DNA of 64,000 nucleotides. Source: Myxococcota bacterium (GTDB lineage: Bacteria; Myxococcota_A; Bradymonadia; UBA7976; UBA1532). This document shows, piece after piece, positions 3,001-22,367 of this stretch. The translations under genes and the position numbers were made by a program. The notes under the pieces were generated by a model, which searched no databases, was not told the origin of the DNA, and worked only from the letters and a program-made list of their open reading frames with translations. Location of the stretch: NCBI GenBank assembly GCA_036337435.1, contig JAYZEG010000028.1, forward strand, positions 32,001 through 96,000, given 5' to 3'. The first letter of the stretch is position 1. Each line of letters begins with the position of its first letter.

Positions 3001-3062
3001 CCCTGAGGGGACGGCCGAGCGTTCCCTTGAGCAGCACCTCAAGTTACAGGAGCCAAGAATGA
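27..3062 (+). CDS. Class I adenylate cyclase (CyaA)-like protein, catalytic motif apparently degenerate
   Basis: Collinear matches to class I AC motifs: LVPYLLHVN, LLLERFYRNAIFLAG, FVDLG, DPYILLFD, RLDLLRRLFILK, WGW, ILNYG..ITRDSWDQV. The expected GS...SDLD nucleotidyltransferase motif reads TD...GDTVTL. Confidence 0.75.
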   Translation: MMVDSSETKSGTPRASAVLPGTEQLIDGWPAAEPFFRGIDRAVDALSENQTRGIAQLGRRIGRFIRFNRTRLARLFESLDDRARTAFALVPYLLHVNEPDLPGYVSSGRLTSHGVSQFEFNETIQSALMSVTRRNSVRSPATEFRPVIRSIFAVTDIGTLAQRPGDTVTLFLVADLRGMGEPLRRQLTRKLEEIIAWSSQQGLNLGFELIDPAWSKEGDFGNLRGERAIGMLLLERFYRNAIFLAGEIPVFWCTTPGSDSDKHEKTARLAARMDFDEAISFVDLGFVELPKVRVRRRAMLGVLNHHPVSPLCTILELVLLLNGANASSLLCDHMKSRIFKGSEAVHFIDPYILLFDAASVALGHHGGWQRLDLLRRLFILKSALVSRRSTRGRRAFIKKLRDMSGYIVRWGWQREVLQDAERFQRNNRSDSDILDKLFREQILGMYRELAELAASTPGRFDDEEVALLGRRLVACFGRNGGQVPPRYTYLLHENPMLETFFVFDDANPEARRRWGVHKELAGRRPVEGAEPVFSADSLSAVLTWAAVNVVTRNRTEVKMVSSDSLVGTALLKDALKEVETAIKVVDPLTLPSLRFSKPRRIERAILLANFEQKRTDEQQMERDRRQYLPSNWDILNYGRDRNSRVRDVSVITRDSWDQVQCRRSRGRDAVRLAMKYVFHDRTPESLQDAPLTVLVPDGRTQRAVHDRLQQLINSVEDVASTPIKTGSFRAFAYEVGGRFQVVRRDNDRIRLFNTRSLDGVVRLLSPSGLGNAGILYDGLSPALSDLRAITKRMETDSSLQFALGWRTSQGLAQITLLDQTGRIYRRKVNPKQLDDALVRIARRIIHSIRHRVRDMRTLRRVVRVFELRDGETQGGQSHLYEDTVRILRLLGEPRPSHPEIFLRGDLVDGRDGIFFEYDDQTFHPREQGRTFIMNLVKKLLSDKSKYSQVNLFIEASTVDFPDSDNSRHITSVVRQLRLIDLYERLLARALLSLRGRPSVPLSSTSSYRSQE

Positions 3063-9325: not shown

Positions 9326-9661
9326 CTTTATTCACTCCATGAATCGTCAGCTAAGTAGCTATCCGTAGCCACTCACGTCCACAGCCAGAAATTGACTGAG
9401 TTCGAACTTGTACGCAGACCCATCTTTGCGCATCACCAAGTTGCTGGATTGGTCGATTGGATCACCATCTTGGTTGATCCTAAATCATTAAAATGTTTCG
9501 CCGACTACCCATCGGCCCCAAAAGTCATTTTGTCGTTCATCTCGTCGCATATAAACCTACCCCTAGGCCATATTACTCGGGATGAAGCACCTCCTTTCAT
9601 CAGTCCGTCCTAAACGAACAGTCTTAAAGTCCGTGCCGGTAATTCCGGCGCGTCACCTACG

Positions 9662-9688
9662 ACATCGGACGGAAAACTACATACTTGA
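9662..9688 (-). promoter_or_regulatory. Sigma-28 promoter of flagellin 1
   Basis: Minus strand TCAA-N15-TCCGATGT, preceded by an AT-rich tract. Confidence 0.85.
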
Positions 9689-10010: not shown

Positions 10011-10475
10011 TTAACCGTCTAAGTTGAGTAGGGTACCTTTTGGCAAATCGCCGTCCTCGCTATAACCCTTCAGGCGGTCTACCATTTCCAAGAATTCCAT
10101 GGGAGGTATTTGACGGGTCACCTCTTTTCCATTTCTTTCCTCAGTGATGGTCATGGTCACTCGCCCAGAACCGGAATCAAATCCAAAATGAACGGATCGA
10201 TTCTTAGCTCTAAGGACTGACTCAGCAATGGCGTTTGCCTGTTCTACCTCTCGCGTCACGAGAGCTGGATCGACTGACGACATTGCAACCGCCTCAAGTC
10301 CACTCTCCGGACCTGGGGTTCCAAGGGTTTGAGCAACTTGCTCTCCTTTTGGTGCTTCTACTTTACTTACGGCAGCGGTTGTCTCTTGCGATTGACCGCG
10401 GCGTCCGGGTGACTCTCCGACCGATGACGGACGGATCGGTTGACCCGCATACGCCTGATAAACATTAATGGCCAT
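10011..10475 (-). CDS. flaG: FlaG family protein
   Basis: NRSVHFGFDSGSGRVTMTI..EVTRQIPPMEFLEMVDRL..GTLLN. Directly downstream of a flagellin. Confidence 0.85.
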   Translation of the reverse strand: MAINVYQAYAGQPIRPSSVGESPGRRGQSQETTAAVSKVEAPKGEQVAQTLGTPGPESGLEAVAMSSVDPALVTREVEQANAIAESVLRAKNRSVHFGFDSGSGRVTMTITEERNGKEVTRQIPPMEFLEMVDRLKGYSEDGDLPKGTLLNLDG

Positions 10476-10542: not shown

Positions 10543-11985
10543 CTAAGCAAGCAACGCCAGAGCGATCTGAGGTTGCTGATTGGCCTGTGCCAAAACCGAA
10601 ATACCAGCCTGCTGAATGATCTGATTCCGTGAGAAATCAGCCGTTTCAACGGCGAAGTCAGCGTCTCGAATTCGACTTCGAGCAGCCGTTACATTTTCGG
10701 CAGCAACAGAGAGGTTGTTGACCGTTGATTCAAGACGATTTTGAGTGGCACCCAACTCGGCTCGAATACCCGACACTTGCTTGATCGCAACATCGGCGAT
10801 ATCGATTGCTCGGTTTGCGCCTTCTCTTGTCGTCACGTCTATCGTGCCAACAGCGTTGTTTGCATTCACCCCGAAGAGTTGTTGGGCTGCAGCAAAACCA
10901 AGTTTTGTTGCCCCACCGACATTTCCTGTCAGGCTGAATTGCTCCTCCGATTGGAGAGTGATACGACCACCGGTCACAAACGTACCAGCTCCACCACCCA
11001 GACCACCGATTGCAGCCCCCGCCATGGTGACTTCGATGTTTCGACCATCTTCAGCGGTCAACTCCAATCGATTGTCCTGGTTTAAGCTCGCGACAACACC
11101 AGTATCATCCGTCGCCGCATTAATGGCATTGACGAGCGTATCTGTTGCATCGTTGGCTTCGACCCGGAAACCGGTAATCATTGCGCCGTTGATAGTAAGG
11201 TTGGTGGTTGAATCTAGCGTGACGGCACCGATATCAGCAGTACCCACGACGATCGTGTCGTCTACGATTGCCCGAACGCCCGAGAACTCGGTCGCATCAT
11301 TGATCGCAGCCGCCTTTGCAAGTGCAGATGCAGCATTGAGTGTTGTTGATAAGGCATCGTCAGCTGCATTTGTCGCTCGAATAGTGACACCGTTGAAAAC
11401 AATGTCATTTTGTTGGAGCGCATCCGCTGCTGCAGCCACCGTGATGTCTGTTGTACTCGACTCGCGAACTTGGCGTCCAAGGCTCGAAGCACGTGCATCT
11501 TTGATCGACACTGTGATGGTATCATCCGCGTTAGCGCCAATATGAAACTTGGCGCCGATGAATGAACCGTCTAGAACTGTCTGGTTGTTGAATGTTGTTT
11601 TTTCAGCAATCCGATCCAGTTCTGTCACAAGCGCATCAACTTCTTGTTGCAGTGACGTTCGATCAGTTTCGGTGTTTGTATCATTCGCTGACTGAACAGA
11701 CAGCTCACGGATACGCTGTAGAAGCGACGTACTCTCAGCCAAGCCACCTTCAGCGGTTTGTGCCAACGAGATACCGTCGTTTGTATTACGGATAGCCTGA
11801 TTAATGCCTCTGACCTGAGCGGTCATGCGGTCTGAGATACCCAAACCAGCAGCATCATCTTTAGCAGAGTTGATCCGAAGACCAGAAGAAAGACGCTCAA
11901 AAGAACGCCCGAGTGAACGATTAGCACCGTTCACGTTTCGCTTCGCGTTAAGCGACGCGATATTTGTATTAACGTATAGACCCAT
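10543..11985 (-). CDS. fliC: Flagellin paralog 2
   Basis: Conserved flagellin termini. MGLYVNTN start at 11985 with AAGGAG SD. Confidence 0.97.
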   Translation of the reverse strand: MGLYVNTNIASLNAKRNVNGANRSLGRSFERLSSGLRINSAKDDAAGLGISDRMTAQVRGINQAIRNTNDGISLAQTAEGGLAESTSLLQRIRELSVQSANDTNTETDRTSLQQEVDALVTELDRIAEKTTFNNQTVLDGSFIGAKFHIGANADDTITVSIKDARASSLGRQVRESSTTDITVAAAADALQQNDIVFNGVTIRATNAADDALSTTLNAASALAKAAAINDATEFSGVRAIVDDTIVVGTADIGAVTLDSTTNLTINGAMITGFRVEANDATDTLVNAINAATDDTGVVASLNQDNRLELTAEDGRNIEVTMAGAAIGGLGGGAGTFVTGGRITLQSEEQFSLTGNVGGATKLGFAAAQQLFGVNANNAVGTIDVTTREGANRAIDIADVAIKQVSGIRAELGATQNRLESTVNNLSVAAENVTAARSRIRDADFAVETADFSRNQIIQQAGISVLAQANQQPQIALALLA

Positions 11986-12304
11986 TTTGTTCGCTCCTTG
12001 AAACAAATGCGGAATAGCTTTCCTTAGCCATTCCCGAAAACACCACCCATGGTGTTTTCAACCCCCAAAGGCAGACCCTCTGCCAGTTCGGGGAGCGTTA
12101 TTAACGAATCCTTACCCCTAAGGAATCGCTTGGGTGCCGACTTTCGTCGGCCTATGTAGTTTTTCTACCGTACCGTTGTTTAGACACTAACTGCCGACAC
12201 TACCCCTGCGTCCGTCCAGCGAAACAACCTAACCTCCAATCAAGCCCATGTTAGGGCCAATGGTTTGAAGTATGTTTGGAAACAGTTGCTTGCCTCCACC
12301 CACG

Positions 12305-12331
12305 ACATCGGACATCCCCGACAAAACTTGA
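12305..12331 (-). promoter_or_regulatory. Sigma-28 promoter of flagellin 2-flaG
   Basis: Minus strand TCAA-N15-TCCGATGT, with boxes identical to the 9662-9688 promoter. Confidence 0.85.
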
Positions 12332-12501
12332 AAAAAAAATGATATTTTTTCGAAGTTTTTTTGTTTTTTGTTTAATTACAGGCGTTTGCGGTTTTCATAT
12401 GGGCGGTTTATCTGGCTTCATGCGTCTGCGATACGCGCAGAATTTAAAAAATTAATGATAGGTTGTCGGGAGGGGGGGCTGAAGAGCCAAAAGAGGTCGA
12501 A

Positions 12502-12536
12502 GGACCCGAGATAATATGCGCAATTATCTCGGATCC
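12502..12536 (-). terminator. Terminator-like hairpin after flagellin 3
   Basis: CCGAGATAAT/ATTATCTCGG stem extended by GGA/TCC with a minus-strand G-U pair. Confidence 0.55.
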
Positions 12537-12664
12537 CCCTATTTTTTTTGCAGTCTTGGTCACCCACTCTAGCGCGTGAGACCGACTACCTTAGTTGAGG
12601 TGCCTCGTCACTCAGCGACCCGCCGCGATTCGGATCGATGCTGAAAGACGAGATACCTTATTTA

Positions 12665-14104
12665 TTAACCGAGCAACTGAAGAACGTTGTTCGGTGCTTG
12701 GTTCGCTTGGGCAAGAATTGAGATACCTGCATTTTGCAAGATCTGATTTCGAGCCATCGATGCTGTCTCGGTTGCAAAGTCCGCATCTTGAATACGGCTT
12801 CTTGCTGCAGAGACGTTTTCTTGTGTCGCACTGAGATTGTTGACCGTAGATTGAAGACGGTTCTGAACCGCACCAAGGTCACTCCGAATGTCCGACACCT
12901 GAGCGATAGCAACGTCGAGAATTTGGAGGGCGACATTCGCACCCTCCCGACTTGTCACATCAATGGTGTCGACAGCGAAGTCACTGTTGGTTCCGAGTAG
13001 TGTATCACCACCAGCCGGGTCGGCACCTAGGCCCAACTTTTCGACACCAGCGTCAGTCTGAGTCATGAAGATAGCCTCTTCTGACTGTAAGGTGACCGTA
13101 CCAGCCTGAACCTGGTTGCCTGCAGCAAAACCGAGGTTTGTCGCGAGACCATTCACTGTCAGCTCAATGTTACGACCATCTTCAGCTTCAAGTGTCAGCT
13201 GAAGGTTTTCATCCAGTCGAGCGATCACACCCGTTTCGTTAGAGAAAGAGTTAATCGTATCGATCAGTGCATTGTTTGCATCATCATCTTCAACGCGGAA
13301 ACCGGAGATGACCGCACCGTTGATGATCATATAGTTTGTGCTGTCCAAAGTAACGGCACTGAGCGGATTGAGGTCCGCGACAAATTCCGTTTTGCCAACG
13401 GTGGCAGTCACACCAGTGTAAATGGACATATCGTTTATTGCGGCAGCCTTTGCGATTGCAGACCCTGCAGCAAGCGATGTACTCACAGTATCATCACTGG
13501 CGACGGTGCCACGAATGGTTGTCGAGTTTAAGACCAGGTCACCATTGTCGAATGCCTCGGCATTCATGGTACCACCATCGTAGCGCGCTTGACGTCCAAG
13601 GATGTTCGCTCGAGCGTCCATAGTTTTAATGGAAATCGTATCATTCGATTTGTAGCCGATATGAAACTTCGATCCTGCGAATTCTCCATTGAGCACTTTC
13701 TGGTCATTAAAACGCGTCGTTTGGGCGATGCGGTTTATCTCTTCGATGAGATTCGTTACTTCCAGTTGAATGGCTTCACGGTCCGACAGCGTGTTGGTGT
13801 CACTCGCTGCTTGGATGGACAGTTCACGCATACGCTGCAAGATTGCGCCGGTTTCATCTAGCGCGCCTTCAACGGTCTGCGCCAAAGAAATACCATCATT
13901 GGTGTTCCGAACCGCTTGATTCAAACCTCTGATTTGGGATGTGAATCGTGTTGCGATAGCCATACCGGCGGCGTCACCTCGAGCTGAATTAATTCGCATA
14001 CCCGATGACAGCCGTTCGAACTGTCTTTCGAGTCCACGAGTTGAGCCATTCAAGTGGCGTCTAGCATTTAATGAAGCAGTATTAGTGTTTACAAAAAGTC
14101 CCAT
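12665..14104 (-). CDS. fliC: Flagellin paralog 3
   Basis: RLSSGMRINSARGDAAG, LGAVQNRL, SRIQDADFA. Confidence 0.97.
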   Translation of the reverse strand: MGLFVNTNTASLNARRHLNGSTRGLERQFERLSSGMRINSARGDAAGMAIATRFTSQIRGLNQAVRNTNDGISLAQTVEGALDETGAILQRMRELSIQAASDTNTLSDREAIQLEVTNLIEEINRIAQTTRFNDQKVLNGEFAGSKFHIGYKSNDTISIKTMDARANILGRQARYDGGTMNAEAFDNGDLVLNSTTIRGTVASDDTVSTSLAAGSAIAKAAAINDMSIYTGVTATVGKTEFVADLNPLSAVTLDSTNYMIINGAVISGFRVEDDDANNALIDTINSFSNETGVIARLDENLQLTLEAEDGRNIELTVNGLATNLGFAAGNQVQAGTVTLQSEEAIFMTQTDAGVEKLGLGADPAGGDTLLGTNSDFAVDTIDVTSREGANVALQILDVAIAQVSDIRSDLGAVQNRLQSTVNNLSATQENVSAARSRIQDADFATETASMARNQILQNAGISILAQANQAPNNVLQLLG

Positions 14105-14265: not shown

Positions 14266-15258
14266 TCATGAATCTACCTCCACCGTTGGTGGCCCATCAC
14301 GGGCAGTTCTAATTGCAGGACCGCGTGTCACCATCGTCTTGGCAACACCCTTGGATCCTGGATTAAGGCGTCTCACAACCTTTTGGGTTGCTCTGCGAGG
14401 CACCTTAGGCCTTATCATCTGCATCCGCGGTCTGGCGTCGCCTGACTCACTGGATGTACGTCTGTTTAAATTGACCGCGACACGCTGTGTTTCATCATCC
14501 CTCTGGATGTAGAGAATGGCTGATTCAGTCCAACATCTTAGCTGTCCATATCGGTCACTCTCTTTTTCCACTGACACCTTCGGTGGTCTCAGAATGCGCG
14601 GTCTCAAAATTCTCGTTTCTCGGTTCTCATTTTCGGGTTTGCTCACTGAGTCACTGTCGCAAACAAACTCCGTTGCGCAGCAACCGTACTTCCAACGTAA
14701 CGACTTATCATCGGTCGTCAGGCTAGCAATCGGCTCTGGCGGAGACCCCCTCGTCAGTCTGATACTTTTCATGCGGTGAGCATTTGCTTGCTCCGCATAA
14801 CCAGCAGACGAAATCGTTTGATTACACTTTGGTGGACCGGCTCCCGAACCACCCGTCGAGCAGTAATCGTTTTCTTCCCTTGCTGTATCCATGTCTTCCC
14901 GACGCTGGCGCCGCCAATGTCGACCTTCATGGTCATTAAATATCCGATGCAATCGGTCTGTATGACGTGAGCGCATCGAACCACGTTGTTTTTGGCCGAG
15001 TCGCAAGGTCCGTCTGGGCCTCGACTCGGAACGAACCAGGCGTCTCGCCCGCTCCGCTGAATCGGCCTCGGCTTGCGCGACGACCCCAAAGAATTCACCT
15101 AACTCCGTATCGCCATAGGCTTGGACAAGGTTTGCATCTAAGGTCACTGCAATCTCATGCAGCTTTCGCCACCCTGTTGGGACTCCGGGCTTTTCCCGCC
15201 TTCGGGGTGCCTTCGCAGGCCGAAGCATTTTTTGCGGTTGTCTAGCTAAGTTATTCAT
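14266..15258 (-). CDS. Arg-rich unrecognised ORF (330 aa) between flagellins 4 and 3
   Basis: ATG lies 8 nt after the flagellin 4 stop with a GGGGG SD-like run. No recognisable motif. Overlies a hairpin-rich sequence. Confidence 0.4.
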   Translation of the reverse strand: MNNLARQPQKMLRPAKAPRRREKPGVPTGWRKLHEIAVTLDANLVQAYGDTELGEFFGVVAQAEADSAERARRLVRSESRPRRTLRLGQKQRGSMRSRHTDRLHRIFNDHEGRHWRRQRREDMDTAREENDYCSTGGSGAGPPKCNQTISSAGYAEQANAHRMKSIRLTRGSPPEPIASLTTDDKSLRWKYGCCATEFVCDSDSVSKPENENRETRILRPRILRPPKVSVEKESDRYGQLRCWTESAILYIQRDDETQRVAVNLNRRTSSESGDARPRMQMIRPKVPRRATQKVVRRLNPGSKGVAKTMVTRGPAIRTARDGPPTVEVDS

Positions 15259-15266
15259 CAGACCCC

Positions 15267-16688
15267 CTAACCCAACAACTGCGTTGCAAGCTGCGGGCTT
15301 TGGTTTGCCTGCGCTAGAATGGAAACACCCGCCTGCTGCAAAACTTGCCCTCGTGCCAGCATGGCGGATTCGACTGCGAAATCAGCATCGACAATACGGC
15401 TGCGCGCCTGTGATGCATTTTCAGAAATATTGGCTAAGTTATTCGCCGTTGATTCCAATCGATTGAGTAATGCACCGTAGTCAGACCTGTCTTTGGATAG
15501 CTGTTCGAGTGCCCTGTCCACGATTGTAATGGCATTATTGGCACCGGCACGGTCTAGAACATTGACTGTGGAGACCGATGCCAGCGAGTCAACACCGACG
15601 ATTTGCTCTCCGGTCAAACCAAGATAGTCAACCTGGCCACCGCTCACTCGGAACTGTTCGCCAGACGAAAACTCCAGCGATCCCGTCGAAACCCCGGATG
15701 TCAAGCCAGTGACCGCTGTAGCAGCAGCGTCCGAGACATTGACTTCGATGTTTCGCCCGTCCCCAGCTGTTAGAATGAGCCGGGAGTTTTCGTCGTAACT
15801 CGCGAGCACGCCTGTTCTATCTGCGACCGCATTGATCTGATTTTTGAGTTCATGATCTGCGTCATCGACTGCGACATCGAAGGTCGTTAATGTCACGCCG
15901 TTGATTTCGATAAAAGAGGTATTCGTGAGCGACCCCCCCGCGATGTCAAGGTCGGTTCTTGCCTCTGTAGCTAACACACGAGCCGATACCCCTGTGTAGT
16001 TCGTGGCATCATTTATAGCCGCTGCTTTTGCAATTGCGGAGCCCGCTGCAAATGAGGTCGACAATTGGTCATCTGCCGCGGAGGTCGTTCGAATTGTAAT
16101 TGAATTGATTAAGATGTCGCCGCCGTTTTTACTCAATGCATGCGTTGAGACGACGGCAGTCTGCTTGATCGCTGACCGACCGAGTGCCTTGGCATGAGCA
16201 TCTCGTACATTAACTTCGACTACATCATCGGCTTTTGCGCCGACATGGAAATAACCTTGCATGAAGTCGCCACTCAGCACCTTCTTGTCATTGAAGAGGG
16301 TCGTGTCGGCGATTCGGTCAAGTTCCCTTATGAGACTTTGGATCTCAAAGTTGATCGATTGTCGATCTTGTGTCGTGTTGATATCATTGGCCGCTTGCAC
16401 AGACAGCTCACGCATGCGCTGCAATAAGGCCATTGATTCTTGTAAAGCACCTTCTACGGTCTGCACGAGCGATATGCCATCATTCGTGTTACGGACAGCC
16501 GTATTTAGACCACGGATTTGTGCTGTAAATCGTGTAGATATTGACAACCCGGCCGCATCATCTTTAGCACTATTGATACGCTTGCCGCTTGCAAGCCGTT
16601 GGAACGAACGATCCAACGCTTTCGTGCTATAGTTGAGCGACCTTTGAGTGTTCAAAGATCTCACGTTCGTATTAACGAACATACCCAT
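15267..16688 (-). CDS. fliC: Flagellin paralog 4
   Basis: RLASGKRINSAKDDAAG, YGALLNRL, SRIVDADFA. Confidence 0.97.
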   Translation of the reverse strand: MGMFVNTNVRSLNTQRSLNYSTKALDRSFQRLASGKRINSAKDDAAGLSISTRFTAQIRGLNTAVRNTNDGISLVQTVEGALQESMALLQRMRELSVQAANDINTTQDRQSINFEIQSLIRELDRIADTTLFNDKKVLSGDFMQGYFHVGAKADDVVEVNVRDAHAKALGRSAIKQTAVVSTHALSKNGGDILINSITIRTTSAADDQLSTSFAAGSAIAKAAAINDATNYTGVSARVLATEARTDLDIAGGSLTNTSFIEINGVTLTTFDVAVDDADHELKNQINAVADRTGVLASYDENSRLILTAGDGRNIEVNVSDAAATAVTGLTSGVSTGSLEFSSGEQFRVSGGQVDYLGLTGEQIVGVDSLASVSTVNVLDRAGANNAITIVDRALEQLSKDRSDYGALLNRLESTANNLANISENASQARSRIVDADFAVESAMLARGQVLQQAGVSILAQANQSPQLATQLLG

Positions 16689-17813
16689 TTTCTAACTCCA
16701 TGAAAAACCAAGAACGTTACCGCTCAAGGCTGGGCATCCTTGCCCAAAAAACGCTTGATAAGTTTTGGATGCACTCCGAGTGTTGTGACCGATCGATCCG
16801 CAAGCGCGCGTTCATAGGAATCTACGAATTCACACGGATGACCTGTCACCGGACTACAGACCTAACTCACCAAATTTACTCAACAGCTGTTACCAACTGT
16901 TCCGAGGGTGTCGACCGAAGTCGACATGAGCTAAGTTCCCACAACTTGCCCATCGTGCGTCCGGCGCACGACCCTCTAAAATCAACAAGACCCACTGTTT
17001 GTTGGCATCAGAGAAATACCAACCATGTCCAACACAGTTCCTTGAGACTCATAAAAACCCTGCTCAAAGACCGTAACTACACTCAGTAGTCGGACATGTT
17101 TTGTTAACTCCGTGACTCAACAAACAGACCTAGTCGCTTAATAGGCAGTTGTCAGCTTGCCTATAGCGTTACAATCGTATCACTTACCCTTCCAGCCTAA
17201 ACACGTAGGCATTTTCAAAACTCTCTTCGTCAATTTCGCTGACCAGCATGTATTTGCAATACACAGTGGTGAGCGCGTACCGGTTTCTCACAACATCGGT
17301 GACCTATGCTGTCGCACGGACAGGTCTTAACCTCGTTGCTCGACAGTTTTGACCCCCCGGCCAAACTGACTTCGAGCAAGGGTAAAAAATCCCCGCTGAC
17401 ATCTGTTTAAGGTCATCCCGATGGTTCAAAACCGACCTCCACTTCCGCCCATCCCCCCTGGGACGGGCTGCTGACGATGGTGTCAATCCATCGACAATCA
17501 ATCCTTGTCATTCCCGGCAGGTGCGGTCTTTGCCTGACCCGCTGTGTCCTGCCATCGGTACCCGGTGTGAGTCGTTCCCAACCCACAGAGTAAAAATCAT
17601 TTTGTCGCACTAACCCGGACTCGCTAGGCGGTCTATGCACGCCCGTCAGAGTCAATGGTTTATTCTTTCGATAGCGTTCGAAAAACCGCGTCACTTGAAC
17701 TATTCCGTTTGCTACTTCCAGAGCTTTGACACCGGAGGAAAACGCTTCCCAAGGGTGGCCATCGGCTCGTCGTCCTGGCCGCTTCACGACCCTTCCTTTG
17801 CTTACGACTGTCT

Positions 17814-19736
17814 TCACGGCGCAGAACTCCTGTTGACAGAGTTCCATTCGCCTCGGCGACGCGTTCCGTGCAGATAATCTGGGCTGACTGTGCCTCTGTT
17901 CCGTGACAGACGGCAGTCGTTGTCAGTGACTGGTCTAGACGGACCTGTCTTCGTCCATCTACTCACCGAGCAAACCCTGACCTGTCGACCACTTTGCATC
18001 ACGTAGTGGCCATCGCCTGCGTCGTCTTGCAAGCAACCGACAGTGGGTTTCGACCGCTGACCTACACATGCCCCGTTTCTATATTCCATGGGCACGGCGG
18101 GGCGTGTAGAGGCGTGCCATTGTCTGAGCGTTACCTCGAGTTTGTCACCCTTGTTGAGCAGACAATGGTCCCATTCAGTCAGGGGCAGCCAGATCGAGTC
18201 CATAAGACCGGGCTCTGCAACAGTGCGACCTGAAAGCATGTGAGCTCCGATTAGCCTAAAAGACGTCCAACGATGTTGCGCGTTGTACATGCCTTTATCC
18301 CATCGTATTGGTGTCAAAGGACCGACGGGTGTGCGCAGTATGGAGTCCCTGTTTTTGTCAATTGGTCCATTGGTTGGTGCATCATCACCATCAGTGGACG
18401 TCTTGTTTAGGCGACCGAGCCAGAACCGTGCTTTGGAGGGGGACTCATCCCCGAGGCTCCTCGGTCGTCTGCTCCTACGACAATTGATGCATCCAGGACA
18501 TGCTCCGGCCTGCGCAGTCGAACTGAGAGTCGATATGGGGTCTCTTATGGACCCGCCGACGACGGTTTTGCTCAAATCTATATCTCGCCAACGGTCGTGC
18601 TGCAGTTGCCTTTCAGGTTTGTGTTTTGCAGGCGGCAAAAAGCCATCCATTTTTATACAGTTTCGATCATCGAATCGTTTTTTCCGTATGGGCTTGGTCG
18701 TACCGCGCAATGGTCGTCCAAGCGATGAACAATCGTTCCTTAGATTCGCTCCTGGGTGTTCGTTTATACCGCTCGAGCTCACTCCTGCTTTAAACCTGCC
18801 CCGATAAACGTCAAACGGGGTCTTAAACCGTCTAAATTGAGATGGGAGCCGGCTCATATGGAGTGGTCCTGGTTTGAAGTCTTCCGACAAACGTCCCTTG
18901 GTCAATGGTTTTACTGGAGGGGGCTCGTTTCCCAGCGTCCCTGCAGGCGTCCACAAGTGCAGGTTTTCCGCACTCTTTGCTGTGACATGACCAGCGCGAA
19001 TGATGGCTCCATCTCTTTGATCTTGCTCCGGGAGTCCGTTTGTAGCTCGGTTACCAGAGCCTGTTTTCCCTGCCGTGAGCAACCGAGGTTGTCGTTCGCA
19101 TCCTTGTCTGAAGTTCGCTAGGGGTTGACTGCTCGCACAATCGCCGAGACCAATTGCGTTGGCCGCGACCCCAAATACATCTGTCACTGCTCCCTGGTTA
19201 TCCTTGTTGTTGAAGACATCAAGGCACTTGCCAGTACGAGAATCAGAGTTTTCGATACAGAGTTGGCTTCCATAGAAACCCTGCTCGGGTATGGTCGACT
19301 CGCGGAGCTCCGTTCGGTCTAACTCCTTGACAGAGGGTTGGACCGAGTTCGTCAAAACTGGTGGTCCATAAACGCCCTCTCGTTTTCTCCAAAGCCTGAG
19401 CTTATTACCTGCTGAGTACGGTGATACCTCGATATTGAAAAGTGAATTGGACAGTTGGTTCTCATCTTTGTTGTGAGCCGATAATCGTGTCCGCTTCAAG
19501 TATGTGTAACCAGCAACAGCTTTGCCGGTAAGCTCCGCTGGGCGATCGGCACGATGACTGCTGCTGAATGCCAACCTTCCTGTGATCGAGTGTTCCGATG
19601 ACACGAAGTGAGCAGTCGAGTAAAGTGGCTCCTCGATGCTTAAATCAAGGGCCTTTAACTCAAACTTGAGCTGGCTTGATTTTTCCTGTTGTCGTTTCAT
19701 CTTATCTAAACACTCTTCTATTGTTCGGTCACTCAT
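17814..19736 (-). CDS. Unrecognised ORF (640 aa) between flagellins 5 and 4
   Basis: 640 stop-free codons with no long opposite-strand gene to explain them. Low-hydrophobicity, R/S/G/P-rich composition and no recognisable domain. Confidence 0.45.
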   Translation of the reverse strand: MSDRTIEECLDKMKRQQEKSSQLKFELKALDLSIEEPLYSTAHFVSSEHSITGRLAFSSSHRADRPAELTGKAVAGYTYLKRTRLSAHNKDENQLSNSLFNIEVSPYSAGNKLRLWRKREGVYGPPVLTNSVQPSVKELDRTELRESTIPEQGFYGSQLCIENSDSRTGKCLDVFNNKDNQGAVTDVFGVAANAIGLGDCASSQPLANFRQGCERQPRLLTAGKTGSGNRATNGLPEQDQRDGAIIRAGHVTAKSAENLHLWTPAGTLGNEPPPVKPLTKGRLSEDFKPGPLHMSRLPSQFRRFKTPFDVYRGRFKAGVSSSGINEHPGANLRNDCSSLGRPLRGTTKPIRKKRFDDRNCIKMDGFLPPAKHKPERQLQHDRWRDIDLSKTVVGGSIRDPISTLSSTAQAGACPGCINCRRSRRPRSLGDESPSKARFWLGRLNKTSTDGDDAPTNGPIDKNRDSILRTPVGPLTPIRWDKGMYNAQHRWTSFRLIGAHMLSGRTVAEPGLMDSIWLPLTEWDHCLLNKGDKLEVTLRQWHASTRPAVPMEYRNGACVGQRSKPTVGCLQDDAGDGHYVMQSGRQVRVCSVSRWTKTGPSRPVTDNDCRLSRNRGTVSPDYLHGTRRRGEWNSVNRSSAP

Positions 19737-20055
19737 CCGAGCGACCCCGTCTATACAAAGTTGTTCTTACGTTTGGACCGTTGTTTCCGACTCTTCGACC
19801 TGCCCATGGCGTGCGATAGCGAGCGTTTTTTGACTCGCTATCCGCCACAAACTCCCAGGCGTTTCTATCTTTCTCCATCACAGAAGGAGGAGGGGAGTCG
19901 CTGCCTGGGCGTTTTTTCAGTCTCGTGTCTTCAAAGTGGTCATCCTTAACCGACCTACTCGGGACCGTCTCCACCCGCCCGGGACAGAGAGCAGTCCGTT
20001 ATAGGGTCTCAAGTAGCGTCTTCTAGAACGCCACCTGAGACGTCTACCCGTCCTA

Positions 20056-21480
20056 TTAACCGAGTAGTGAGAGCGCTGCCTGGCCGGCTTGGTTCGCCTG
20101 CGCCAAGATTGATGTACCGGCCTGTTGAAGGACCGATGAACGGGCCATGTTCGCCGATTCAGATGCGAAGTCTGCATCGAGAATCCGGCTACGGCTCGCA
20201 GACGCGTTCTCTGTGATTGAGCTAAGGTTGTTGATTGTTGATTCGAGGCGATTCTGCATCGCACCGAGTTCGCCTCGTTGCGCAGAGATTTGCTCCAGAG
20301 AGCGATCGATGATCTCGATGGCTCTATTCGCCGTATCTCTGGTCAGAACGTCCACCGTTGCGACAGATGAGTTTACCGAGTTGACACCAACAATTTGCGG
20401 ATTGTTAAATCCGACGAAACCGAGATTGGCACCGTCAACCGTAAACGCAAGGTCGCTTTCTAGGTCGAGTGTCGCCGTTGTAACGTCGGTAGAAAGGCCT
20501 GTAATGAGTTGCGCATTAGCGTCAGATGCCGATACTTCAATGTTACGGCCATCGACGGCTGTCAGTACCAAACGAAAGTCAGTATCGACGGATGCGACGA
20601 CGCCCGTTGCTGCTGAATGGGCATTGATCTGAGCAGCGAGTTCACCGTTAGAATCGTCAGCCGTGACAGCAAAACCTGTGATGATTGTGCCGTTGATTGT
20701 CACGTAACTATTTTCATTCAACGTACCAGCGGTGACATCTCCATTATTGCTGACAACGGTTGCGTTGACACGTGCAGTGACACCGGTGTGTTGAGTCGCA
20801 TCATTGATAGCTGCAGCCTTTGCGATGGCAGACCCTGTTGCAAATGATGTTGACACTCTGTCGTCGGCACTTGTCGTTTGGCGAATGGTGATGTCGTTAA
20901 TGACGACACTACCACCGGCTTTGCTCAGCGCACTCGTAGCGACGGTTCCAGTCTGCACCAGTGCCGTTCGTCCTAACGCCGTTGCACGTGCATCACTGAT
21001 TGTAATGTCAACGCGCTCTCGGGCTGCAGCCCCCACGTGTACAAAGTTTTGAATGTAGTCCCCATTCAAAATCTTATGGGAGTTAAAGGTTGTTGTATCT
21101 CCGATTCGGTTGAGCTCTTGAATCAGCTGGTCAATTTCATCGTTGATAGAACGTCGGTCGGCGTTCGTGTTCACGTCATTCGCTGCTTGTACAGACAGCT
21201 CGCGCATCCGTTGAAGAATCGCTGTGCTCTCTTGCAAAGCACCTTCGGCAGTTTGAGCTAAACTCACACCGTCGTTGGCGTTTCGGATTGCCATGTTGAG
21301 ACCTCGAATTTGGCTTGTGAAGCGCGTCGAGATTGCGAGTCCAGCAGCATCGTCAGCTGCGGAGTTAATACGTAGCCCTGAAGAAAGGCGTTGGTAGGTC
21401 GTCTTCATACCCCGACTATTGGTGGTCAGGTTGCGTTGTGCGTTAAGTGAAGACGCATTGGTCATAACAAAAAGGCCCAT
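20056..21480 (-). CDS. fliC: Flagellin paralog 5
   Basis: MGLFVMTN start at 21480, RLSSGLRINSAADDAAG, LGAMQNRL, SRILDADFA. Confidence 0.97.
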   Translation of the reverse strand: MGLFVMTNASSLNAQRNLTTNSRGMKTTYQRLSSGLRINSAADDAAGLAISTRFTSQIRGLNMAIRNANDGVSLAQTAEGALQESTAILQRMRELSVQAANDVNTNADRRSINDEIDQLIQELNRIGDTTTFNSHKILNGDYIQNFVHVGAAARERVDITISDARATALGRTALVQTGTVATSALSKAGGSVVINDITIRQTTSADDRVSTSFATGSAIAKAAAINDATQHTGVTARVNATVVSNNGDVTAGTLNENSYVTINGTIITGFAVTADDSNGELAAQINAHSAATGVVASVDTDFRLVLTAVDGRNIEVSASDANAQLITGLSTDVTTATLDLESDLAFTVDGANLGFVGFNNPQIVGVNSVNSSVATVDVLTRDTANRAIEIIDRSLEQISAQRGELGAMQNRLESTINNLSSITENASASRSRILDADFASESANMARSSVLQQAGTSILAQANQAGQAALSLLG

Positions 21481-21674
21481 AATCATCTCTCCCTGAGATT
21501 CACTGCGGTGCCATCGTGGCTGTGCAGGTCGGCATCCATGCCGTAGTTGCTTTTTGGTAGGAACGACGTGGGCTATCTGCCTCACTCATCACCTTGATGA
21601 ATCAGGCTCCCGTTTAAGCACCCCTTTCTCGCCTTCGAGAGTGAGTGCCGAGTCGCTCCTGGCGTTCACCCAAG

Positions 21675-21701
21675 ACATCGGATCGCATCTGCTCGACTTA
21701 A
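21675..21701 (-). promoter_or_regulatory. Sigma-28 promoter of flagellin 5 (possibly of a 5-4-3 operon)
   Basis: Minus strand TTAA-N15-TCCGATGT, preceded by about 280 bp of very AT-rich DNA. Confidence 0.85.
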
Positions 21702-22314
21702 GCTATTTTCTCTTATTCAGTAAAGGATGGTAATCATTGTTTTTAAACAGTAAATATATCATGTATTCCATAATGTTATGCGTTTTTAATGATGTAATAT
21801 TTACGGTTTTTTTTTACTTTTAATTATGCCAATAACTCGATTGTTAAGACAGTATTGAATTAAAGGTGATATTTAATGAATATAAATGAGTTTTTAATGA
21901 CTAGTTAATAATTAAGTTCGATAATTTTATGTAATTTTTTAGGAATAATATTTCTTGTAAGTACACATGGTTTTGTTCCATTAAACTGCGCATTGATAAT
22001 TTGTTGTGACCGCGCTGTTTTGGATGCGCTGCCAAAGTGGACGGGAGTTAGGTCGCCATCAATTGGAATGCGTCATTGTTTCAGATAGGTTGAGGGTATG
22101 ACCTCGGAGCCTGCGGCGTGTTTAATCTCTATTTTGGAGCGAGTGTTCGCCGGGTCATTTGTAGGAAACCTCGGGTCGGATGCTTTGTTGACATACTTTT
22201 GTCTGTTACGTCGTGTCGACAACGTGTCAAGGTTCCAGACAGTTCGCGTCATCTCCCTGACGATTTGGCAGAAAAACACCGGAAAAAGCGGCTGTCAGAC
22301 GCTGTCGAAAAAGT

Positions 22315-22329
22315 TGGCACACTGCTTGA
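22315..22329 (+). promoter_or_regulatory. Sigma-54 promoter candidate
   Basis: TGGCAC-ACTGC-TTGA about 40 nt upstream of ATG 22368. Confidence 0.6.
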
Positions 22330-22367
22330 ATAGGTGTTGGGTTGCACAGATGCAAGGGAGATTGCCA

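What the first reader, a model, noticed from the sequence alone, without database searches (positions are those of the whole stretch)
16700..20050. 3.4-kb hairpin-tiled spacer inside the flagellin array that also carries a chain of long unrecognised ORFs
Seen: between flagellins 5 and 4 there is no recognisable gene, yet stems recur about every 50-100 nt. Examples are 16909-16926 (C-UUCG-G loop on the minus strand), 16953-16971, 17336-17379, 17447-17468, 17824-17844, 17886-17918, 18062-18109, 18117-18168 (10 bp perfect), a long-range helix 18254-18269/18395-18412, 19314-19346, 19815-19842 and 20006-20041. The same DNA is covered on the flagellin strand by overlapping ORFs 19729-19974, 17814-19736 (640 aa, 8-nt overlap), 17413-17847 and 17304-17501. 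By my rough estimate (about 4% stop probability per codon), 640 open codons are far beyond chance, and no antisense gene explains them. The protein is R/S/G/P-rich and motif-free. I found no sigma-28 promoter for flagellin 4, so this region is probably transcribed from the 21675-21701 promoter. G-U wobbles favour the minus strand near 16.7-17.5 kb but the plus strand near 19.1-19.9 kb. Inference: a very large structured RNA (scaffold, protein sponge, or processing element that sets flagellin ratios) whose reading frames stay open so ribosomes can cross it, or a dual RNA/disordered-protein locus.
Basis: partly seen in the sequence, partly recalled or inferred. Interest (0 to 1): 0.85.

Follow-up and report, generated by a model that had tools for sequence, protein, structure and literature searches.

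The report
Sequence-free open frame between flagellin genes
The stretch is not one giant folded RNA: it holds a very long reading frame that stays free of stop codons in every related species although its sequence drifts like junk DNA, followed by a conserved folded leader RNA for the next flagellin gene.

Summary
The 640-aa ORF (650 codons stop to stop) cannot be chance (P about 1e-13). The hairpin tiling holds only at the two ends. The ORF body folds no better than shuffles (mean z -0.35) and worse than ordinary coding controls. There is no Rfam, Pfam, NCBIfam, PHROG or PADLOC hit, and the only relative among 1.84 billion representatives is the same-genus ORF. All 5 lineages examined carry a long stop-free frame directly after the orthologous flagellin (513, at least 435, at least 389, at least 148 codons). 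The frames are mutually unalignable, have the composition of a random translation, and their SNPs look neutral (6 synonymous to 14 non-synonymous, against 10 of 10 synonymous in the flagellin). Only the upstream flagellin has a sigma-28-type promoter. Untranslated pieces are C-poor, and a relay of overlapping ORFs carries coverage almost to a conserved 0.5-kb leader. That leader contains a three-way junction with six compensatory pairs. Best reading (about 40%): the frame is kept open so that ribosomes cover a long flagellin polycistron, protecting it from Rho polarity or decay. Main rival: a sequence-insensitive disordered protein. No translation data exist.

The parts
21675..21701 (-). Sigma-28-type promoter of the upstream flagellin (fla509). 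It is the only such promoter upstream of the whole stretch.
   Evidence: The motif TTAAGT-N14-TCCGATGT is shared with the promoters at 12331-12305 and 9688-9662. The same site is kept in G002 (L004 8697-8671) and G001 (L009 3298-3272). Promoter function is inferred from likeness to the sigma-28 consensus, which I recalled.
20056..21483 (-). The ORF listing GTG start at 21585 is probably too far upstream.
   Evidence: Pfam Flagellin_N, Flagellin_C and Flagellin_IN. It is 97% aa identical in G002, with dN/dS 0.03.
19737..20055 (-). Untranslated, structured, C-poor stretch between the flagellin stop and the ORF start. It holds stems at 20006-20041 and 19815-19842.
   Evidence: z is -2.9 to -4.4. 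C/G is 0.79. No intrinsic terminator was found here. It is not conserved in G002 apart from the last bases.
19727..19746 (-). 8-bp hairpin with a GGAU loop that holds the ATG of the 640-aa ORF. Seen in G000 only.
   Evidence: Fold energy -16.3 kcal/mol, z -3.26, 0 of 200 shuffles as good. No GGA-loop hairpin at the ORF start in 0 of 4 other lineages.
17814..19736 (-). 640-aa orphan ORF (open frame 17817-19766, 650 codons). It is kept open but its sequence is unconstrained.
   Evidence: See the full report.
17304..17847 (-). Relay of overlapping ORFs (17413-17847 and 17304-17501). It extends start-to-stop ORF cover from the long ORF's stop almost to the conserved leader.
   Evidence: 97% of 17211-17813 is covered by same-strand ORFs of 40 aa or more. 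Shuffles give 49 +/- 23%, and 5 of 500 reach the observed value. In G002 the cover is 86% against 42%, with 7 of 500. These may instead be remnants of a longer frame split by frameshifts.
16689..17210 (-). Conserved, structured, C-poor 5' leader of the downstream flagellin fla473.
   Evidence: 83-86% identical to G002, and over 90% in the proximal 400 nt, while synonymous sites differ at 37-57%. Mean z is -2.8. C/G is 0.66.
16904..16976 (-). Three-way junction in the leader (P1 closing stem plus three hairpins, one with a UUCG loop), preceded by an invariant GGGUCUUGUUGA at 16982-16993.
   Evidence: 27 pairs, 94.9% of cells paired. 6 pairs changed on both sides between G000/G002 and G003. 0 of 500 shuffles reach this, and slid controls give 36-42% paired. 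Model R1 finds one strong copy each in G000, G002 and G003.
16731..16746 (-). Hairpin with an AGGA loop, about 30 nt upstream of the GGAG Shine-Dalgarno of fla473. This is a CsrA-type two-site arrangement.
   Evidence: Fold. The same design appears in 4 of 5 flagellin leaders of the window. csrA and fliW lie just upstream of the window. Binding is inferred, not tested.
15267..16688 (-). It has no promoter motif of its own.
   Evidence: Pfam. 98.5% aa identical in G002, dN/dS 0.02. No sigma-28-type motif upstream in G000 or G002.

Best explanation
The 3.4-kb stretch is a composite inside one flagellin transcription unit. The inferred unit is: sigma-28-type promoter at 21701-21675, fla509, long ORF, leader, fla473, ORF330, fla479, strong terminator at 12539-12499. 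(1) After a short structured, C-poor stretch comes a very long ORF. It is 640 aa here and 498 aa, at least 435, at least 389 and at least 148 codons in relatives. Its amino-acid sequence is essentially free to drift, but its frame is held open by selection. (2) A relay of overlapping shorter ORFs continues ribosome cover to within about 100 nt of (3) a conserved 0.5-kb folded leader. That leader carries a three-way junction and a CsrA-type GGA hairpin plus Shine-Dalgarno pair, and it controls fla473. Proposed mechanism (inferred): what is selected is the act of translation. Ribosomes on this unstructured RNA, whose C/G ratio is like that of coding sequence, keep Rho and RNases off it. RNA polymerase can then reach the three distal genes. 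A nonsense or frameshift mutation would be polar and is purged, while missense changes are neutral. The stretch may have begun as a real gene whose product became dispensable (a 'polarity-locked' ORF). It may also serve as a translation-dependent gate for the distal flagellins.
For: Shown: the frame is open in 5 of 5 lineages directly after the fla509 ortholog. P(open) is 1e-13, 2e-11, 3e-8, 1.5e-7 and 9e-4. Only one frame is affected. In simulation, an unconstrained ORF640 stays open in 2% of runs at 0.05 substitutions per site and in 0 of 300 at 0.1 or more. G000 and G002 differ by dS 0.5-1.1 in neighbouring genes. Sequence is unconstrained: the ORF bodies align no better than shuffles (protein local z 0.07, nucleotide local z -0.54). 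There is no pairwise BLASTP hit among the 4 genus ORFs except the first ~63 aa of G000 and G002. Even there, dN/dS is ~0.7 over 40 codons, with differences of 28/20/29 at codon positions 1/2/3. SNPs: 5 synonymous, 9 non-synonymous and 0 stop of the 14 listed in ORF640, against 10 of 10 synonymous in fla509. L061 against G002 gives 1 synonymous and 5 non-synonymous. The neutral expectation is 24/72/4%. ORF640 has the lowest codon-position signal of 2009 ORFs of 300 aa or more, and the lowest codon-usage score of the 886 of 500 aa or more. The ESM Atlas model has pLDDT 0.22. Operon context: sigma-28-type motifs occur only before fla509, fla487 and fla480 in G000. Only fla509 has one in the 12-kb G002 locus. 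The only strong terminator (17 bp plus a T-run) follows fla479. rho is present. Composition: untranslated pieces have C/G 0.63-0.83, while the ORF bodies of G000 and G002 have 0.93-0.97, like coding sequence at 0.94-1.11. The relay ORFs cover 97% and 86% of the stretch up to the leader, reached by 5 of 500 and 7 of 500 shuffles. RNA-library contigs from 3 runs of 2 studies tile much of the spacer. The promoter gap 21684-22351 has zero depth in 3 of 3 RNA runs, and a DNA run covers part of it. Established knowledge: translation shields intragenic Rut sites, and loss of translation causes Rho polarity on downstream genes (passages of PMC12360218).
Against: No ribosome profiling, proteomics or strand-resolved read data are available, so translation is inferred only from the open frame. 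Start contexts are weak: an SD-like motif sits near the first start in 2 of 4 genus ORFs. ORF cover of the stretch from the flagellin stop to the ORF start is not above chance in any of 4 genomes. A sigma-70 or sigma-54 promoter inside the spacer or leader cannot be excluded. There is a one-mismatch-per-half sigma-54-like site at 19233-19218. An internal promoter would remove the polarity argument. The hypothesis does not explain why 1.2-2 kb of dispensable sequence was not deleted in frame in any lineage. C/G of the G001 and G003 ORFs is intermediate (0.84-0.86). SNP counts are small: 20 in all, and only 40 of 90 differences were shown. The pN/pS of ~0.6-0.8 allows weak protein-level constraint. 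Rho behaviour in this uncultured lineage is unknown. Contigs cannot show a single 9-kb transcript.
Confidence: 0.4

Rival explanations
1. The ORF encodes a real, fast-evolving, intrinsically disordered protein whose function depends on length or bulk properties rather than on sequence. Examples would be a late flagellar export substrate, an entropic spacer, or a decoy. It would be co-expressed with flagellins from the sigma-28-type promoter.
For: The frame-specific open frame in 5 of 5 lineages is what a gene looks like. An ATG lies 11-14 codons after the upstream stop in 3 of 4 genus ORFs, and at codon 37 in G002. The G001 and G003 products are poor in I, F, C and W and rich in A, G, R, S, D and E, as disordered proteins are. 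pN/pS of ~0.6-0.8 allows weak constraint. G002's ORF was called as a gene by its depositors' pipeline, since it is in the protein library as P0001. This reading explains why the sequence has not been deleted.
Against: No family hit in Pfam, NCBIfam, PHROGs or PADLOC for 4 of 4 ORFs. The only relative found is G002's ORF, which matches over ~63 residues at E 4.9e-4 in the 1.84-billion-protein library. The 5.8-billion-sequence search returned no hit at all for ORF640. A search with G002's ORF returned only itself. There is no conserved motif even among congeners. The G000 and G002 compositions, including 2.3-2.7% Cys and 1.7-1.9% Trp, equal a random translation. Codon usage is the least gene-like of all long ORFs in the genome. 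The one shared segment evolves with dN/dS ~0.7. The ESM Atlas model has pLDDT 0.22. As a control, 3 of 3 other no-Pfam, low-periodicity ORFs of this genome have clear genus orthologs at 32-80% identity.
Confidence: 0.3
2. One reading: a very large structured RNA (scaffold, protein sponge or processing element) spanning 16.7-20.05 kb.
For: The two ends are truly structured. G000's ORF has twice the expected number of ANGGA motifs (23 against 11.8 +/- 3.2, 0 of 300 shuffles), and csrA and fliW are adjacent. RNA-library contigs cover parts of the stretch.
Against: The ORF body has mean z -0.35, below the coding controls. There are 0 Rfam families at gathering score, and only two sub-threshold matches at E of 2 or more. 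The body is unalignable between congeners, so no structure is conserved there. ANGGA enrichment is seen in 1 of 5 lineages. A structured RNA does not need one stop-free frame.
Confidence: 0.03
3. A hypervariable island. Each lineage holds a different, recently acquired or recently decayed piece of foreign or mobile DNA (non-orthologous replacement). The open frames are young and are not maintained.
For: The bodies share no similarity. Three assemblies (G001, G003, L062) break inside the ORF. 16 of the 28 L061-G002 differences cluster in 220 nt just after the ORF, like a recombination tract.
Against: No similarity to phage or plasmid DNA. No transposase or any other domain in 50 of 50 six-frame segments. 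No terminal inverted or tandem repeats. Single copy in the genome. GC of 0.52 equals the genome's 0.526. Saturated neutral divergence (dS up to 1.07) is enough to explain unalignable orthologs. Five independent arrivals, each with a long ORF in the same place and orientation, are implausible.
Confidence: 0.1
4. A regulated gate rather than passive protection. A regulator such as CsrA blocks translation initiation on the long ORF and so exposes the RNA to Rho. Distal flagellin expression would then depend on translational status.
For: The G000 start codon sits in a GGA-loop hairpin of the same design as the flagellin leaders' hairpins. csrA and fliW are present beside the locus, and rho is present elsewhere in the genome on contig C58. 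A CsrA-responsive Rho attenuator (pgaA) is mentioned in a passage of PMC12360218.
Against: No GGA-loop hairpin near the ORF start in 0 of 4 other lineages. The conserved 5' block has only a weak consensus fold, -13.7 kcal/mol over 151 nt.
Confidence: 0.1

Closest known systems
Translation-dependent protection from Rho polarity; leader or upstream ORFs in Rho-dependent attenuators (passages of PMC12360218; further examples such as mgtL and corL are recalled)
   Same: An ORF in the same transcript, upstream of the regulated genes, in which the act of translation matters rather than the peptide. rho is present. The untranslated parts are C-poor.
   Different: Known leader ORFs are a few to a few dozen codons long and lie in 5' leaders. 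This one is 390-650 codons and sits between two structural genes. No pause or arrest motif is known. Rho dependence was not tested.
CsrA/FliW-controlled flagellin 5' leaders (Hag-FliW-CsrA of Bacillus subtilis; abstract of PMC6529632; the two-site design is recalled)
   Same: A GGA-loop hairpin plus a GGA-containing Shine-Dalgarno in 4 of 5 flagellin leaders here. csrA and fliW lie next to the locus.
   Different: This applies only to the last ~70 nt of the stretch. The leader is ~520 nt long and has an additional three-way junction with no Rfam family. Binding was not tested.
Large structured bacterial RNAs (GOLLD, ROOL, OLE, raiA) and CsrB/RsmZ-type sponges (recalled; Rfam models were searched)
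   Same: Large size, no recognisable protein family, many visible stems, neighbouring RNA-binding regulator genes.
   Different: No Rfam match. No excess stability in the 2-kb body. No conservation. GGA motif enrichment is not general.
Orphan or de novo genes and fast-evolving disordered proteins such as the flagellar ruler FliK (recalled)
   Same: A lineage-restricted ORF without homologs, variable length, poorly conserved, in a flagellar locus.
   Different: No Flg_hook or any other conserved domain. Composition equals a random translation. No aa-level constraint was detected, yet the frame has been retained across saturated divergence, which young orphans have not had time to show.

Membership tests
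Large structured non-coding RNA | Match to a curated covariance model | tested here: not met
   0 of 4227 Rfam families at gathering score over the 64-kb window. With permissive filters on 16500-20200, the only matches are snoM1 (21 bits against a 40-bit cut-off) and raiA (14.4 against 101.3).
Large structured non-coding RNA | Folding stability above shuffled and coding controls along its length | tested here: not met
   The body 17814-19736 has mean z -0.35 (24 windows). Four coding controls are -0.59 to -1.66. Only 16689-17210 (mean z -2.8) and 19500-20000 exceed the controls.
Large structured non-coding RNA | Sequence or structure conservation with covariation among relatives | tested here: not met
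   The body is unalignable between G000 and G002. This feature is met only for the 73-nt junction in the leader, with 6 compensatory pairs.
CsrA-sequestering sponge RNA (CsrB/RsmZ type) | Many GGA/ANGGA motifs, enriched over background, mostly in hairpin loops | tested here: not met
   ANGGA is enriched in G000's ORF only (23 against 11.8). It is not enriched in G002, G001, G003 or L062. The whole G000 spacer holds 4 distinct GGA-loop hairpins.
Ordinary protein-coding gene under purifying selection | Homologs or a domain; dN/dS well below 1; codon periodicity | tested here: not met
   No family hit. Beyond G002's ORF, no homolog was found. SNPs are 6 synonymous to 14 non-synonymous. dN/dS is ~0.7 in the only alignable part. 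Periodicity is the lowest of 2009 ORFs.
Ordinary protein-coding gene under purifying selection | Frame kept open across species | tested here: met
   5 of 5 lineages.
Translation-dependent anti-polarity or attenuator ORF | Lies in the same transcript upstream of the dependent genes, with no promoter in between | tested here: inconclusive
   No sigma-28-type motif between 21675 and the terminator at 12539-12499 in G000, or in the G002 locus. RNA-library contigs tile parts of the spacer. Other promoter types and a single long transcript could not be tested.
Translation-dependent anti-polarity or attenuator ORF | Peptide sequence irrelevant, frame and translation required | tested here: inconclusive
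   Irrelevance of the sequence is supported. Retention of the frame is supported. Translation itself and Rho dependence cannot be tested with these tools.
CsrA/FliW-regulated flagellin leader | csrA and fliW present; GGA in a hairpin loop plus GGA in the Shine-Dalgarno of the flagellin mRNA | tested here: met
   csrA lies at C28:31292-31444 and fliW at C28:31596-31952. The AGGA-loop hairpin is at 16731-16746, followed by a GGAG Shine-Dalgarno. Binding cannot be tested here.
Insertion sequence or other mobile element | Transposase or integrase, terminal inverted repeats, multiple copies | tested here: not met
   No domain found. The longest inverted pair is 22 nt at 73% and lies internally. Single copy in the genome. 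No phage or plasmid match.

The most novel reading that the evidence does not exclude
A 'polarity-locked' translated spacer. This would be a 400-650-codon reading frame whose only selected property is that ribosomes can run through it. Nonsense and frameshift mutations would be purged because they would silence the distal flagellin genes of the operon. The encoded polypeptide drifts to the composition of random sequence. That would be selection on the act of translation at the scale of a whole gene. It would also be a route by which dispensable genes inside operons escape pseudogenisation and could feed de novo protein evolution.
Probability: 0.35. Interest if true: 0.75.

Novelty: new variant of a known kind. 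Interest (0 to 1): 0.6.

Why it matters
If the frame is kept open only for ribosome transit, this is a natural, gene-sized example of selection on translation itself rather than on a product. Until now that idea has rested on short leader ORFs. It would show that operon polarity can freeze a dispensable ORF in an 'undead' state for longer than synonymous sites take to saturate. It would warn that 'conserved ORF' does not mean 'functional protein'. It would also provide a continuously translated pool of random-like polypeptide from which new proteins could arise. If the product is instead functional, it is a protein whose function tolerates complete sequence turnover, which is equally unusual. 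Separately, the leader holds an undescribed structured RNA element (a three-way junction with covariation) in front of a flagellin gene, in a lineage whose flagellar regulation has not been studied.

Tried and rejected
- Rfam at gathering and permissive thresholds: nothing usable.
- Pfam on 6 ORFs and on all 50 stop-to-stop segments of 40 aa or more in six frames: 0 hits at E of 0.01 or less. One hit at E 0.2, MOR2-PAG1_mid, is meaningless.
- NCBIfam, PHROGs and PADLOC on the four genus ORFs, ORF144 and ORF330: 0 hits.
- Word-indexed homolog search with ORF640: none, not even itself. With G002's ORF: itself only.
- Full HMMER over 1.84 billion representatives: only G002's ORF, E 4.9e-4, over residues 3-65.
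- ESM Atlas: no usable feature hit; structure hits have TM of 0.26 or less.
- DNA against phages and plasmids: no match.
- Tandem and dispersed repeats: none of note.
- Other genera of the family: the gaps after their flagellins could not be judged, because those genomes show long overlapping open frames in nearly all six reading frames. I read this as high G+C but did not measure it.
- CsrA-sponge idea: ANGGA enrichment in G000 only.
- CsrA gate at the ORF start: the GGA hairpin is in G000 only.
- ORF cover between the flagellin stop and the ORF start: not above chance in 4 of 4 genomes.
- Consensus fold of the shared 5' block of the ORF: weak.
- Model R1 in the family: strong hits in 3 of 28 genomes. 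Four weak hits (E 2e-4 to 6e-3; G017, G042, G005, G011) were not examined and are probably chance.
- Low codon periodicity as a marker of a genome-wide class: rejected. 11 of 20 lowest-periodicity ORFs have Pfam domains. 3 of 3 no-Pfam ones tested have genus orthologs.
- Parts of the spacer without contig cover in the sequencing runs (for example 17342-18009): not interpreted.
- Literature searches on Rho polarity plus unconserved ORFs, flagellin, sigma-28, orphan and disordered, and 'act of translation' listed no description of such an ORF. This is not proof that none exists.
- Earlier-findings look-ups by place and by words gave nothing on this locus.

Full report
LAYOUT. The window is G000:C28:32001-96000 of a 4.38-Mb, 95-contig assembly that is 87% complete. 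The finding lies in a minus-strand flagellar array. The genes are FliD 4959-7214, flagellin 7883-9325, FlaG 10011-10475, flagellins 10543-12006 and 12665-14104, an unassigned ORF330 at 14266-15258, flagellin fla473 at 15267-16688, the 3367-nt stretch 16689-20055, and flagellin fla509 at 20056-21483. Earlier notes of this scan call the organism an uncultured marine myxobacterium. I did not test that. The stretch occurs in seawater metagenomes and metatranscriptomes of 13 coded studies, with at most 0.40 of its sampled words in any one run.

OBSERVATION, ORFS. One minus-strand frame has no stop between 19769 and 17816 (650 codons). The other two minus frames have 51 and 55 stops in 3367 nt, and the plus frames have 32-42. 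So the effect is specific to one frame and is not a general lack of stop triplets. From local composition, P(open) = 1.3e-13. The three short ORFs are unremarkable in length.

OBSERVATION, HAIRPINS. I folded 150-nt windows with a 75-nt step and 30 dinucleotide shuffles each. The ORF body has mean z -0.35 on the minus strand (24 windows) and -0.64 on the plus strand. Four ordinary coding controls have mean z of -0.59, -0.76, -0.86 and -1.66. Excess structure is confined to three places. These are 16689-17210 (mean z -2.8, single windows down to -5.6), 17250-17500 (-1.9 to -3.0) and 19500-20000 (-2.1 to -4.4). The 5' leaders of other flagellins, such as 12000-12675, are equally structured.

NO KNOWN FAMILY.
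- Rfam gives 0 families at gathering score and two meaningless sub-threshold matches.
- Pfam finds nothing in the ORFs or in any of 50 six-frame segments. NCBIfam, PHROGs and PADLOC also find nothing.
- The 5.8-billion-sequence search returns no hit for ORF640. Full HMMER over 1.84 billion representatives returns a single protein, the ORF of the same-genus genome G002. The match covers residues 3-65 only, at E 4.9e-4. That ORF in turn finds only itself.
- The ESM Atlas holds ORF640 letter for letter, and its model has pLDDT 0.22 and pTM 0.13.
- There is no phage or plasmid DNA match and no repeat structure. The stretch is single copy in the genome.

COMPARATIVE ANATOMY. Of 40 other genomes searched with the DNA, only G002 (same genus) matches, in two pieces. 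Window 16689-17210 matches at 83-86%, and 19629-19744 matches at 76%. The locus is syntenic. G002 has a 3.1-kb stretch between the orthologous flagellins, with a 498-aa ORF (513 codons open) on the same strand.

The two remaining genomes of the genus also have a long open frame directly after their fla509 orthologs. Those orthologs are 92% and 81% aa identical to fla509. G001 has at least 435 codons and G003 at least 389. Both frames run off the contig end.

A metagenome scan with fla509 gave 8 loci. One (L061) is the G002 species at 99.64% identity, with the frame intact. One (L062, flagellin 77% identical) is a fifth lineage with at least 148 open codons from 65 nt after the flagellin stop to the contig end. 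The other six are distant flagellins at 43-46% identity and were not used.

P(open) for these frames is 2e-11, 3e-8, 1.5e-7 and 9e-4. Among the four genus ORFs, the only BLASTP similarity is the first ~63 residues of G000 and G002. Nucleotide alignment of the four 5' regions shows nothing conserved beyond the flagellin's end in G001 and G003. In other genera of the family, long overlapping open frames in nearly every reading frame (which I take as a sign of high G+C, not measured) made the same test meaningless.

HOW IT EVOLVES. Neighbouring genes of G000 and G002 differ by dS 0.52 (fla473), 0.80 (fla509) and 1.07 (ORF330). Their dN/dS values are 0.02, 0.03 and 0.25. Neutral sites are therefore near saturation. 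The ORF bodies, with the shared start removed, align no better than shuffled sequences. The z-scores are 0.07 (protein local), 1.0 (protein global), -0.54 (nucleotide local) and 1.68 (nucleotide global). This is what orthologs drifting neutrally would show.

In the only alignable part, the first 40 codons give dS 0.45 and dN 0.32. Differences fall 28, 20 and 29 times on codon positions 1, 2 and 3 of the 63 aligned codons. That conservation therefore looks like a nucleotide-level constraint. A translation-initiation region is one possibility.

Within populations, 14 differences in ORF640 were listed from contigs of four runs. Five are synonymous, 9 non-synonymous and none is a stop. All 10 listed in fla509 are synonymous third-position changes. 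L061 against G002 adds 1 synonymous and 5 non-synonymous changes in the ORF. It adds one change in fla509 and none in two other genes. The random-mutation expectation for ORF640 is 24% synonymous, 72% non-synonymous and 4% stop. Only 40 of 90 differences were displayed, so these counts are a sample.

In simulation, an unconstrained ORF640 stays open in 2% of runs at 0.05 substitutions per site and in 0 of 300 at 0.1 or more. So the frame has been actively kept open while the sequence has not.

COMPOSITION. The nucleotide make-up of ORF640 is almost identical at the three codon positions. Its amino-acid composition follows codon degeneracy. It has the lowest codon-position information of all 2009 open frames of 300 codons or more in the genome. 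Its codon-usage score is the 23rd lowest of 2009, and the lowest among the 886 frames of 500 codons or more.

Low periodicity alone is weak evidence. Of the 20 lowest, 11 have Pfam domains. The 3 no-Pfam ones I tested have clear genus orthologs at 32-80% identity. That contrast makes ORF640 stand out, because it alone has no alignable ortholog.

TRANSCRIPTION CONTEXT. Three flagellins (fla480, fla487, fla509) share a motif T[CT]AAGT-N14-TCCGATGT, 190-340 nt upstream of their start codons. It resembles the sigma-28 consensus, which I recalled. Nothing like it precedes the long ORF, fla473, ORF330 or fla479. In the 12-kb G002 locus, only the fla509 ortholog has it, and G001's ortholog has it too.

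The consensus scan finds one strong terminator, a 17-bp stem with a T-run at 12539-12499, after fla479. It finds only two 5-bp candidates inside the stretch. The simplest reading is one unit: fla509, long ORF, fla473, ORF330, fla479. A sigma-70 or sigma-54 promoter is not excluded. There is a weak sigma-54-like site at 19233-19218.

Contigs from three RNA libraries (two studies) lie on 16893-17217, 17063-17322, 17616-17796, 18006-18268, 18280-18717, 18894-19069, 18943-19224, 19006-20009, 19201-19998, 19781-19922 and 19953-20199. The divergent promoter gap 21684-22351 has zero depth in 3 of 3 RNA runs. A DNA run covers 21703-21947. Contigs cannot prove one transcript, a strand or a level. In the oligo-dT library, three contigs carry T-rich loose ends at their low-coordinate ends (19953, 19781, 16893). 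These would be non-templated A-tails on minus-strand RNA ends, just 3' of stable stems. This is a hint only.

RIBOSOME COVER AND RHO.
- rho is present.
- On the minus-strand RNA, every untranslated piece is C-poor. C/G is 0.79 between the flagellin stop and the ORF, 0.72 between the ORF stop and the leader, and 0.66 in the leader. G002 gives 0.75, 0.76 and 0.68. The bona fide 5' UTRs of three other flagellins give 0.63-0.83.
- The long ORFs of G000 and G002 have C/G 0.97 and 0.93, like coding sequence at 0.94-1.11. G001 and G003 are intermediate at 0.86 and 0.84.
- That Rho prefers unstructured, C-rich, G-poor RNA is recalled. That translation shields intragenic Rut sites, and that loss of translation is polar, I read in passages of PMC12360218.
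- Start-to-stop ORFs of 40 aa or more cover 97% (G000) and 86% (G002) of the ~600 nt from the long ORF's stop to the conserved leader. Mononucleotide shuffles give 49% and 42%, and 5 of 500 and 7 of 500 reach the observed values. The chain could also be remnants of a longer frame broken by frameshifts.
- The stretch before the long ORF shows no such excess in 4 of 4 genomes.

THE LEADER. 16689-17210 is more conserved than synonymous sites. A three-species alignment (G000, G002, G003) supports a three-way junction at 16904-16976, behind an invariant GGGUCUUGUUGA. Of 27 pairs, 94.9% of cells are paired, and 6 pairs changed on both sides. No shuffle out of 500 reaches this, and slid controls give 36-42% paired. 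With three sequences, two of them close, this is suggestive rather than statistically strong.

A covariance model finds one strong copy each in G000, G002 and G003 among 28 family genomes. Four weak hits were not examined.

Closer to the gene, an AGGA-loop hairpin at 16731-16746 precedes a GGAG Shine-Dalgarno. The same design occurs in 4 of 5 flagellin leaders. csrA and fliW lie immediately upstream of the window. This matches the flagellin-FliW-CsrA circuit (abstract of PMC6529632; the two-site detail is recalled).

MECHANISM AND RIVALS. I commit to selection on ribosome transit, at about 0.4. The open frame keeps ribosomes on an otherwise Rho- and RNase-accessible RNA inside a long flagellin polycistron. 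Nonsense and frameshift changes are therefore polar and are removed, while missense changes are neutral.
- Shown: the frame is retained, the sequence is unconstrained, the only promoter motif lies upstream, untranslated pieces differ in composition from the ORF, and the relay ORFs give excess cover.
- Inferred: translation, co-transcription and Rho dependence.

The main rival, at about 0.3, is a real disordered protein whose function tolerates total sequence turnover. It explains better why the sequence has not been deleted. A regulated CsrA gate and a CsrA sponge were tested and are not general, each being seen in G000 only. Non-orthologous island replacement is unlikely. A giant structured RNA is rejected for the body.

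COMPARISON AND NOVELTY. The closest known logic is that of translated leader ORFs in Rho-dependent attenuation, and of operon polarity in general. The difference is scale and position: hundreds of codons, lying between structural genes. My three literature searches listed no such case, which is not proof of absence. The leader junction has no Rfam family. I rate the whole as a new variant of a known kind, with interest 0.6.

LIMITS. The organism is uncultured and no strand-resolved reads were available. Two of the five frames are cut by contig ends and a third is only 148 codons long. SNP counts are small. The E-values of model R1 are rough. The promoter assignment rests on a motif.

Noticed in passing
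window 9662-9688, 12305-12331, 21675-21701 (minus strand): Three flagellin genes share a promoter-like motif T[CT]AAGT-N14-TCCGATGT, followed by 190-340-nt structured leaders. The other two flagellins and ORF330 have none.
   Followed up: partly
window 16731-16746, about 12020-12040, about 9355-9375, 21530-21543; G000:C28:31292-31952: GGA-loop hairpins plus GGAG Shine-Dalgarno sites occur in 4 of 5 flagellin leaders. csrA and fliW lie just outside the window. This suggests a FliW-CsrA flagellin checkpoint in this lineage.
   Followed up: partly
flagellin coding regions, e.g. window 15267-16688 and 20056-21483; L004 2539-3960: ANGGA motifs are depleted inside flagellin genes, with 0-3 seen where 5-6 are expected. 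For fla473, 500 of 500 shuffles have at least as many. This may be avoidance of stray CsrA sites, or an effect of amino-acid usage.
   Followed up: no
window 14266-15258 (minus strand): ORF330 lies between two flagellins and starts 8 nt after the fla473 stop. It has no Pfam, NCBIfam, PHROG or PADLOC hit. It is conserved in G002 at 64% aa identity with dN/dS 0.25. All 6 listed population differences are non-synonymous.
   Followed up: partly
G000:C82:26422-29541: A 1934-codon open frame contains ten or more tandem segments similar to the middle (Flagellin_IN-type) domain of the flagellins. G003:C267 has a 1445-codon counterpart.
   Followed up: no
L061 7545-7761 (= G002 just after the long ORF's stop): 16 of the 28 differences between two 99.64%-identical assemblies cluster in 220 nt. 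This looks like a recombination tract or a local hypervariable spot.
   Followed up: no
window 19953, 19781, 16893: In an oligo-dT RNA library, contigs end here with non-genomic T-runs on the plus strand. This fits A-tailed minus-strand RNA 3' ends lying 6-53 nt downstream of stable stems.
   Followed up: no
window 16712-16725 (minus strand): A small conserved hairpin followed by UUGGUUUUUC lies directly before the fla473 Shine-Dalgarno. It could be an attenuator or part of the CsrA-site fold.
   Followed up: no
contig ends: G001:C84:1, G003:C222:1, L062 end: Three independent assemblies break inside the long ORF. This would fit high strain-level diversity there.
   Followed up: no
whole genome and family: The genome carries at least 8 full-length flagellin paralogs, and family members carry up to 11 strong matches. 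If the earlier label 'myxobacterium' is right, this is a flagellated member of a phylum known for gliding. A class-I adenylate cyclase lies at window 27-3062.
   Followed up: no
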